Assembly (NCBI GenBank): GCA_964035575.1
Contig: OZ037844.1
Span: forward strand, 1,674,001-1,738,000
Direction of reading: 5' to 3'
DNA length: 64,000 nucleotides
DNA from: Rhynchopus sp. YZ270_cl-10
Lineage: Eukaryota
The position numbers were made by a program, and so were the translations under genes. The notes beneath the pieces are model-generated. The model made no database searches and had not been told where the DNA came from. It was given only the letters and a program-made list of their open reading frames with translations. Each line of letters starts with the position of its first letter. Position 1 is the first letter of the stretch. Of this stretch, positions 12,262 to 13,065 are shown one piece after another.

Positions 12262-13065
12262 TGTCCTTAGATTATTCTTATTTTAGATTGCCTTCTGTTT
12301 TTTCTTCCAGCTTTTCATTAAAGCTGTTTCCCTGCCCTGTTTTTTGTCCGCTGTTTTTTTTTTTTTTTTTTTGCAGTGGCTTTTGGTTTTATTTCTGGAT
12401 GCCTGCGCCCGCTGAGGCTTGGTGTCGTATCATTGGTTTTTTGTTCACTCCGCCTTTTTTCTGGGCCCTCGGGGGTCCTGTGTTTTTGTTTGTAGTTGGG
12501 ATGGATGCTCTCGTGGCCTACGGGTTTAAATATTCTACGTGACGGTGTCAGGAGGTTGTTTCGGCTTCCACATTCGCCCCCCTCATCGTAGCGCCTATTT
12601 CGAGATAAAAGTATCCCCCTTCCCTCCTCTCCGTTTTCATCATTGCTGTTCGCCCTTCGCGGGTCTTTTAGGTACTCTCTATCTATCTCAGATCTCCCTG
12701 AAACACGCTTTAGCGGAGCAGCTTCGCTGCGTGTTGGGAGATCTTTGATAGAGACTACCGTCCTTTTGATTTGACATGGCACGCACACTGCTATTTGGCA
12801 GAATATTTATTTGATTTTCCTCAGGCTTTGTCCTGGTTGGCCGGGGTCCGTTTATGTTTCAGTCTCTACCCTCACCAAATCACCACACCATCTTCATCAG
12901 ATTTTTTGTTGGAATTTGTTTTGGGTTGTTTCGGCTTCCACATTCGCCCCCCTCATCGTAGCGCCTATTTCGAGATAAAAGTATCCCCCTTCCCTCCTCT
13001 CCGTTTTCATCATTGCTGTTCGCCCTTCGCGGGTCTTTTAGGTACTCTCTATCTATCTCAGATCT

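What the first reader, a model, noticed from the sequence alone, without database searches (positions are those of the whole stretch)
12671..12759. Conserved T-shaped hairpin at the recombination junction, with covariation across three families
Seen in family 1: CTCTATC..AGATCTCCC pairs with GGGAGATCT..GATAGAG and encloses CGC-TTTA-GCG, GA and GCAGC-TTC-GCTGC-G. Family 2 (19117-19200): GTCTATATCC..TAGATCTCC pairs with GGAGATCTA..GGATATAGAC and encloses CCAC-CCTG-GTGG, A and GTGGC-TTTT-GCCAC-G. Family 3 (joining 14044 to 13749): a perfect 15-bp ACACCAGATCTCCCC/GGGGAGATCTGGTGT stem encloses TTAAC-TT-GTTAA, A and GCAGC-TTT-GCTGC-G. The sequences differ but the fold is the same, and the crossover lies within the long stem rather than at the symmetry centre. 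Known: integron attC and CTXphi attP are folded single-strand substrates for tyrosine recombinases, and AAV ITRs have this T shape. Inference: the retroelement YR may recombine a folded ssDNA, and the GGGAGA strand, which is complementary to TCTCCC, may set target specificity.
Basis: partly seen in the sequence, partly recalled or inferred. Interest (0 to 1): 0.88.

Follow-up and report, generated by a model that had tools for sequence, protein, structure and literature searches.

The report
Folded joint of recombinase retrotransposons
Several related jumping genes in what is likely a marine flagellate carry, where their two ends meet, a sequence predicted to fold into a long hairpin with the insertion point on one arm, which suggests they may insert as folded single-stranded DNA, as bacterial integrons do.

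Summary
The hairpin is real. It sits at the B|A joint of intact VIPER/TATE-like tyrosine-recombinase (YR) retrotransposons (gag-YR-RT/RH, split direct repeats), likely from a diplonemid, inserted in a CTCTCCCCC array. Both real joints fold at z about -7. In the two small arms, 6 of 9 pairs change on both sides across three families. The crossover (CCCT in family 1) lies on the 5' arm of the stem. Corrections: family 1 as sequenced folds as a rod, not a T; the T returns with one base change seen in other runs. Family 3's joint is virtual. The GGGAGA guide idea is not supported: 2 of 4 insertions are out of register. Read by eye from a published supplement, the T. cruzi VIPER and L. braziliensis TATE joints also form stems across the joint, crossover on the 5' arm, without a T. 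The stem is therefore likely the general feature and the T a clade-specific cap. Best reading (0.55, inferred, untested): a folded, attC/CTX-like attachment site used in one strand exchange. Ten paper searches found no such description; key reviews were unavailable.

The parts
7217..7763 (+). Target array (CTCTCCCCC)n, piece 1; further pieces 13072-13751, 14038-14112, 19540-19833, 20233-20546
   Evidence: TRF; 2 purines in 1854 nt on + strand
7764..13069 (+). Family 1 full element A1-ORFs-B1-A2-B2
   Evidence: self-BLAST; A1/A2 258 of 258 and B1/B2 146 of 146 identical
7764..8021 (+). Family 1 A1 repeat; head arms 7770-7779 and 7782-7794, box 7800-7808
8171..9424 (+). Family 1 ORF1, putative gag (by position; no Pfam hit)
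9425..10555 (+). Family 1 tyrosine recombinase frame (first ATG 9560); R182, H275, R278, H301, Y310 invariant in A2
   Evidence: PF00589 E 3.5e-5, below cut-off; model pLDDT 93, Cre-like
9136..12261 (+). Family 1 RT/RNase H frame overlapping the YR frame
   Evidence: PF00078 E 1.5e-10; RNase H by motif in alignment, label from established knowledge
12554..12699 (+). Family 1 B1 repeat (B2 = 12924-13069)
12671..12759 (+). Family 1 B1|A2 joint hairpin: outer stem, B box 12690-12698, arm 1 12706-12715, arm 2 12718-12730, A box 12736-12744
12696..12699 (+). Family 1 crossover/overlap zone CCCT on the 5' arm
12700..12957 (+). Family 1 A2 repeat
13753..14044 (+). Family 3 solo A-B copy (SIRE-like); arms 13755-13766 and 13768-13780, A box 13787-13795, B box from 14035
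   Evidence: homologous to the other two A-B repeats
14113..19541 (+). Family 2 full element; ORF1 14489-15697, YR 16070-16993, RT/RH frame 15556-18678, B1 18969-19140, A2 from 19141, B2 19370-19541
   Evidence: A1/A2 259 of 260, B1/B2 172 of 172
19117..19200 (+). Family 2 B1|A2 joint hairpin (T form is the minimum-energy fold); overlap zone 19136-19141; arms 19147-19158 and 19160-19173; A box 19179-19187
19834..20235 (+). Family 2 solo A-B copy
20582..24241 (+). Host CNOT1 gene; the array ends about 35 nt upstream of its ATG, ahead of an AG, so it is likely the gene's polypyrimidine tract
   Evidence: Pfam; splice role inferred

Best explanation
The B|A joint of these VIPER/TATE-like retrotransposons is predicted to fold into a bulged hairpin that likely serves as the element's attachment site, recombined by its own tyrosine recombinase as folded single-stranded (or cruciform) DNA. 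Shown: intact elements with split direct repeats, a stem that needs the joint, covarying arms, an invariant 9-bp helix, and a crossover with about 4 nt of target homology at the inner end of the 5' arm. Inferred steps: (1) reverse transcription yields a cDNA carrying a B2|A1 joint, circular or held as a self-splinted nick; (2) folding makes AGATCT(CCC) a duplex YR box; (3) the YR cuts the 5' arm just 3' of that box and swaps it with the C-rich target strand, whose CCC pairs with the A-arm GGG; (4) bulges and the branched cap beyond the overlap block a second exchange, and replication or repair resolves the intermediate, as for attC and CTX attP(+). The T cap is a variable terminal structure, not the essential part. 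Target choice comes from CCC(T) microhomology plus protein preference, not from an extended guide.
For: Fold z about -7, best windows in both elements. Six arm pairs change on both sides; given 4 random substitutions in arm 2, the chance that all 5 pairs survive is 0.005. A12705C, seen in 1 contig of run X4 and 7 of X7, extends arm 1 to 4 bp, breaks the rod and makes the T the minimum-energy DNA fold (P 0.87). In duplex form the two boxes are 37 nt apart with the crossover against one of them, unlike a canonical 6-8 bp core (established knowledge); folding brings them into one helix. Pairing continues past the end of B into A, which 3'-end priming alone would not need. By eye in PMC6681497 supplements: the T. 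cruzi VIPER joint has 7+4+8 bp helices across it, with the 5 nt between the authors' B end and A start on the 5' arm. The L. braziliensis TATE joint pairs 12 of 14 positions, with the shared TT on the 5' arm between two mismatches; a TT duplication is reported for TATE. DIRS-1 cDNA is single-stranded, mostly linear, and integration-competent. attC and CTX attP(+) use folded strands, off-centre crossover and short homology.
Against: No biochemical data. Only two real joints are in the window; the third is virtual. Family 1 as sequenced does not form the T. The YR model is closest to Cre (Z 18.5, rmsd 3.1, 275 aligned) rather than the integron integrase (Z 15.3, rmsd 4.0, 252 aligned), and I saw no sign of an I2-like insertion (spacing compared with recalled numbers only). 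Neither strand folds consistently better. The cleavage geometry points to the sense strand, whereas reverse transcriptase makes the antisense strand first, so a second step is needed. The published model assumes a double-stranded circle. Of 5 published copies whose joints I looked at, 2 were clear, 1 weak (C. fasciculata chr 21: 7 bp of T/A tract), and 2 could not be assessed. None could be folded by program.
Confidence: 0.55

Rival explanations
1. The pairing acts during reverse transcription or circle closure. The 3' end of B2 folds back on the A arm to prime cDNA synthesis, or the two cDNA ends are splinted for ligation. The YR then recombines an ordinary duplex circle.
For: Complementarity is between the very end of B and a site 35-45 nt into A, as end pairing needs. 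The RNA fold is strong (-47.6 and -42.6 kcal/mol). No primer is known for DIRS elements and a 3' hairpin primer has been suggested for DIRS-1.
Against: Priming needs no pairing beyond the B end, no covarying arms inside A, and no sequence-invariant helix; all three are seen. It does not explain why the TATE crossover sits inside a helix between two mismatches (by eye). The splint version is compatible with the best explanation.
Confidence: 0.25
2. AGATCTCCC and GGGAGATCT are simply two inverted protein-binding boxes (core plus accessory site) read in duplex DNA; the folding is a by-product.
For: The 9-bp helix is invariant, which says nothing for structure. VGJ phage uses a duplex site with a single exchange. 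The YR is Cre-like.
Against: It does not account for compensatory changes in the arms or for outer stems of different sequence, nor for unrelated sequences forming stems in VIPER and TATE.
Confidence: 0.1
3. An RNA signal for packaging, processing or stability that happens to lie at the joint.
For: Strong RNA fold; the A head folds partly on its own (z -3.2 and -2.0).
Against: The long stem needs the B|A joint and contains the crossover; no Rfam match near threshold; the T arms are better supported with DNA than RNA energies on the sense strand of the family 1 variant.
Confidence: 0.06
4. The GGGAGA strand is an extended guide that base-pairs with TCTCCC in the target and sets specificity.
For: GGGAGA is complementary to the array unit. 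Family 2 full has 6 nt of homology in register, and family 3 fits loosely.
Against: 2 of 4 insertions are out of register. One low-depth contig in run X1 shows a family 1-like B end followed by a CCCCCT repeat. GGGAGAG also occurs in the T. cruzi arm, where the partner is not TCTCCC. The TATE arm is not complementary to its telomeric target beyond AA (by eye). Errors in homopolymer length could blur the registers.
Confidence: 0.04

Closest known systems
VIPER/TATE (VIPER-like) YR retrotransposons and SIRE of kinetoplastids (PMC6681497, PMC12278014)
   Same: gag, YR, RT/RH order with overlapping frames; A1-B1-A2-B2 repeats; no true target duplication; solo A-B copies; targeting of a simple repeat (TATE: telomeric hexamer). 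Their published joints also appear self-complementary (by eye).
   Different: Own YR clade: named relatives are diplonemid proteins and the D. papillatum protein named TATE lies in the other main clade. Different target (CTCTCCCCC array). Two-arm cap not seen in T. cruzi VIPER. No joint hairpin described in the passages read.
CTX phage attP(+) (PMC3442271)
   Same: [quoted passage not shown]
   Different: CTX uses host XerC/XerD on a phage strand at dif; here the element encodes one YR and single-strand use is untested.
Integron attC (PMC4792948)
   Same: Conserved fold with little sequence conservation across lineages, crossover off-centre in the stem, about 3-nt microhomology, bulges.
   Different: IntI has an I2 domain for extrahelical bases; this YR is closer to Cre in fold. 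Bulge positions are not conserved among the three families. Not an integron.
DIRS-1 and Ngaro (PMC7192593, PMC8547959, PMC3266345)
   Same: YR retrotransposons with an internal copy of the end joint and short overlap (3 nt in DIRS); Ngaro has the same repeat layout and solo A-B copies; DIRS-1 cDNA is single-stranded.
   Different: DIRS has inverted termini and an ICR; Ngaro has RT/RH before YR.
AAV inverted terminal repeat (recalled, no call)
   Same: T-shaped outline with two short arms.
   Different: A terminal replication origin cut by an HUH enzyme; here the T is dispensable in family 1 and no HUH gene was seen among the frames scanned. Resemblance of shape only.

Membership tests
VIPER-like YR retrotransposons | ORF order gag-like, YR, RT/RH with overlap | tested here: met
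   definition; gag assigned by position only
VIPER-like YR retrotransposons | Split direct repeats A1-B1-A2-B2 | tested here: met
VIPER-like YR retrotransposons | No true target-site duplication (short overlap only) | tested here: met
   overlap CCCT and TCTCCT is shared with the internal joint
VIPER-like YR retrotransposons | Intact YR catalytic residues | tested here: met
   R182, H275, R278, H301, Y310 invariant in 5 sequences; catalytic Lys (210 or 212) not fixed
VIPER versus TATE clade | Phylogenetic grouping with trypanosomatid VIPER or TATE proteins | tested here: inconclusive
   quick tree of 39 YRs, careful search unfinished, no trypanosomatid protein identified in it; families 1 and 2 lie apart from the D. 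papillatum protein named TATE
Ngaro | RT/RH upstream of YR (order recalled; ORF2 = RT) | tested here: not met
   YR domain precedes the RT domain
DIRS proper | Inverted terminal repeats with ICR | tested here: not met
   direct repeats only
Folded ssDNA attachment sites (attC, CTX attP(+)) | Imperfect hairpin with structure conserved by covariation | tested here: met
   n = 3 families
Folded ssDNA attachment sites (attC, CTX attP(+)) | Crossover off-centre in the stem with short homology | tested here: met
Folded ssDNA attachment sites (attC, CTX attP(+)) | Conserved extrahelical bases or mismatched overlap blocking the second exchange | tested here: inconclusive
   bulges or mismatches follow the overlap in each fold but differ in place
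Folded ssDNA attachment sites (attC, CTX attP(+)) | Recombinase binds and cuts one folded strand; single exchange resolved by replication | not testable with these tools
   needs biochemistry
Integron attC/IntI | I2 domain in the integrase | tested here: inconclusive
   model nearest to Cre, IntI third; no residue-level comparison of the I2 region was made

The most novel reading that the evidence does not exclude
Split-direct-repeat YR retrotransposons as a group (VIPER, TATE, perhaps Ngaro) integrate through a folded single-strand attachment hairpin and one strand exchange: a eukaryotic, independently evolved counterpart of integron attC and CTX attP(+), with target choice tunable through a 2-4 nt overlap.
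Probability: 0.4. Interest if true: 0.85.

Novelty: new variant of a known kind. Interest (0 to 1): 0.7.

Why it matters
How DIRS-order retrotransposons integrate is open. The 2020 DIRS-1 study states that YR specificity had not been tested, found single-stranded, mostly linear cDNA, and could not amplify the expected circle junction. A conserved hairpin with the crossover on one arm gives a defined ~90-nt substrate, a defined target and an intact enzyme, so the question becomes a direct oligonucleotide experiment. If right, folded-strand recombination, known from bacteria and their phages, also runs in eukaryotic retroelements, and a compact YR that inserts ssDNA into a simple repeat would be of interest as a tool.

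Tried and rejected
No whole genome is held for the window, so no genome-wide family survey was possible. RT-based locus searches found no relative: 0 of 155 pattern matches in viral contigs and 0 of 415 in metagenome contigs. A DNA pattern for arm 2 plus box gave 6 window matches (0 in 100 shuffles; the pattern was built from them) and 4 metagenome loci. All 4 lack the partner box, the shared A motif and any YR/RT hit, and were taken as chance. No RNA holder was listed. No family 3 B-to-A joint was listed in 4 runs, but the region was partly masked. Rfam gave one match far below threshold. The third YR element in the window (50496-53693) showed no split repeats, so it could not serve as a control. 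I first guessed that the TATE crossover lay at a CCCTA motif; the record's ends showed TT instead and I dropped the guess. Searches of two other supplement files found nothing. Summed contig depths were not used as copy numbers. No complex was predicted, since no protein-protein binding is claimed. Poulter and Butler 2015 is not held.

Full report
CONTEXT. The window is eukaryotic and gene-dense: an LRR gene, CNOT1, WD40/CAP repeats and a nucleotide cyclase. No whole genome is held. Between the LRR gene and CNOT1 a 9-bp array (CTCTCCCCC)n is broken into five pieces by four insertions, all in one orientation: family 1 full (7764-13069), family 3 solo (13753-14044), family 2 full (14113-19541) and family 2 solo (19834-20235). 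Both full elements have A1-ORFs-B1-A2-B2 repeats, identical or nearly so (258/258, 146/146, 259/260, 172/172), which points to recent insertion. Each has a gag-like ORF, a YR frame and an overlapping RT/RNase H frame. That order and repeat layout define VIPER/TATE; the solo A-B copies correspond to SIRE (PMC6681497 sections 6-7; PMC12278014 passages). Of 20 YR relatives looked up, the 9 clusters that name an organism are all diplonemid (D. papillatum, D. japonicum, Lacrimia lanifica); 11 name none. The host is therefore likely a diplonemid (inference). In a quick tree of 39 YRs (careful search unfinished; rows with under 180 aligned residues left out), families 1 and 2 group with an unnamed D. 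papillatum protein and apart from the one named TATE. The YR keeps R182, H275, R278, H301 and Y310 and models with pLDDT 93 as a Cre-like recombinase.

THE OBSERVATION. Both real joints fold far beyond chance on either strand, as DNA or RNA (z -6.0 to -7.4, 0 of 200 shuffles), and supply the top three of 355 windows. The long stem needs B end and A head together. The three A-B repeats are homologous but only about half identical outside the head. In the head, unguided alignment sets two small arms in register: 26 of 27 cells pair and 6 of 9 pairs change on both sides (2 of 500 shuffles), while the AGATCTCCC/GGGAGATCT helix never varies. With three sequences and a structure chosen from them this is suggestive, not a significance test. 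The crossover lies at the inner end of the 5' arm: CCCT in family 1, TCTCCT in family 2.

At the finding's own coordinates the T is not the predicted fold: a rod wins by 3.9 kcal/mol as DNA and the arms have probability near 0. The T is the best fold in family 2. In the virtual family 3 joint arm 2 is firm (0.9) and arm 1 weak (0.3). Contigs from other runs carry A12705C (1 contig in X4, 7 in X7); applied in silico, that one change lengthens arm 1 to the 4 bp of families 2 and 3 and makes the T the best DNA fold (0.87). So the T is likely the usual state in this clade, yet an intact, recently inserted copy is predicted to lack it, so it is likely dispensable. Family 3's joint was never observed (partly masked).

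THE GUIDE IDEA. If GGGAGA paired with TCTCCC in register, the left junction would carry the element's own number of Cs and the right junction the target's. Observed left/right runs: family 1 6/3 (joint 3), family 2 solo 5/3, family 2 full 2/2 (joint 2), family 3 4/6. Two are out of register, one is ambiguous and one fits loosely. One low-depth contig shows a family 1-like end followed by a CCCCCT repeat. A short CCC(T) overlap explains all four. Homopolymer errors are a caveat.

PUBLISHED RELATIVES, READ BY EYE. In the supplements of PMC6681497 the T. cruzi VIPER joint (6 internal joints displayed, nearly identical) has helices of 7, 4 and 8 bp across it with a 3x1 internal loop and a plain 16-nt loop. 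The 5 nt between the authors' B end and A start lie on the 5' arm. The L. braziliensis TATE copy ends and begins with a shared TT, matching the TT duplication reported in PMC2696322. At its internal joint that TT sits on the 5' arm of a stem pairing 12 of 14 positions, between two mismatches. One C. fasciculata VIPER shows only a 7-bp T/A stem; a second copy and a B. saltans copy could not be assessed. These were not folded by program. The stem across the joint, with the crossover on the sense-strand 5' arm, thus appears in three lineages with largely unrelated sequence; the T appears in one.

MECHANISM. Shown: anatomy, predicted fold, covariation, crossover position. Inferred: the joint is a folded attachment site. 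In duplex form the two boxes are 37 nt apart with the crossover against one of them; folded, they form one duplex box directly 5' of a short overlap, followed by bulges. That is the geometry of attC (structure conserved, 3-nt microhomology, replicative resolution; PMC4792948 passages) and of CTX attP(+) (stem of a double hairpin, one-sided homology, single exchange; PMC3442271 passages). By general YR chemistry (established knowledge) the cutting subunit binds 5' of the scissile bond, which favours the sense strand. That needs second-strand synthesis or cruciform extrusion, and is a weak point, since folding energies favour neither strand. DIRS-1 makes single-stranded, mostly linear, integration-competent cDNA and its YR is untested (PMC7192593 abstract and passages). 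The main rival is end pairing for priming or circle closure followed by duplex recombination (0.25). Duplex boxes (0.10), an RNA signal (0.06) and an extended guide (0.04) are less likely.

NOVELTY. The elements are new members of the VIPER-like group. Ten full-text searches (listings seen) and term searches inside papers found no description of a joint hairpin or folded substrate for these elements. PMC7192593 remarks only that the DIRS-1 junction may be self-complementary and cites a 3' hairpin as a possible primer. Also seen as passages: PMC10161547, PMC12440569, PMC8547959, PMC3266345, bioRxiv 2026.05.21.726589 (102). Not seen: Poulter and Butler 2015, Goodwin and Poulter 2004, Lorenzi 2006, Repbase reports and the .fas supplements of PMC6681497; any could hold a prior remark. 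Three unchecked notes from this scan report joint hairpins in other YR retroelements; they are leads, not support.

VERDICT. The feature is real and the observation partly confirmed. The folded-substrate reading is plausible and directly testable (0.55). The T is secondary and the guide idea is unsupported. Novelty: new variant of a known kind. Interest 0.7.

Noticed in passing
window 50496-53693 (-): A third YR retroelement of the other YR clade, with no split repeats found. At its 5' side lie about 5 copies of a 22-bp unit (53702-53807) that occurs once in the neighbouring ~2-kb gene repeat (55816-55860); at its 3' side a poly-A run and 4 copies of an 88-bp repeat (49915-50262).
   Followed up: partly
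window 58502-63167: Long RT-bearing frame (LINE-like by recall) running into about 116 copies of ACCCGCAA.
   Followed up: no
window 20233-20582: The target array ends just upstream of an AG and the CNOT1 ATG, so the elements sit in what is likely that gene's polypyrimidine tract. The array is almost purely pyrimidine on one strand and could form triplex or quadruplex DNA (inference).
   Followed up: partly
window 12720-12726 (-): Arm 2 of family 1 reads GCGAAGC on the minus strand, recalled as an unusually stable DNA mini-hairpin; families 2 and 3 have A-only loops there.
   Followed up: no
window 13745-13801, runs X7, X8, X3: Contigs in X7 and X8 share the family 3 head to 13801 and then diverge, and contigs in X7, X8 and X3 carry an extra T in the arm 1 loop: likely a sister family that keeps the head.
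   Followed up: partly
window 705-860: Short tandem copies of the palindrome CCAGATCTGG, containing the same AGATCT hexamer as the element box; no link shown.
   Followed up: no
window 26968-44732: Tandem near-identical WD40 genes, two with CAP and PT-repeat domains.
   Followed up: no
window 1-101, 2836-3018, 30024-30303, 34403-34689: Dispersed inverted copies of a short repeat family, possibly ends of miniature DNA transposons.
   Followed up: no
window 45796-48792: Intronless adenylate/guanylate cyclase frame.
   Followed up: no
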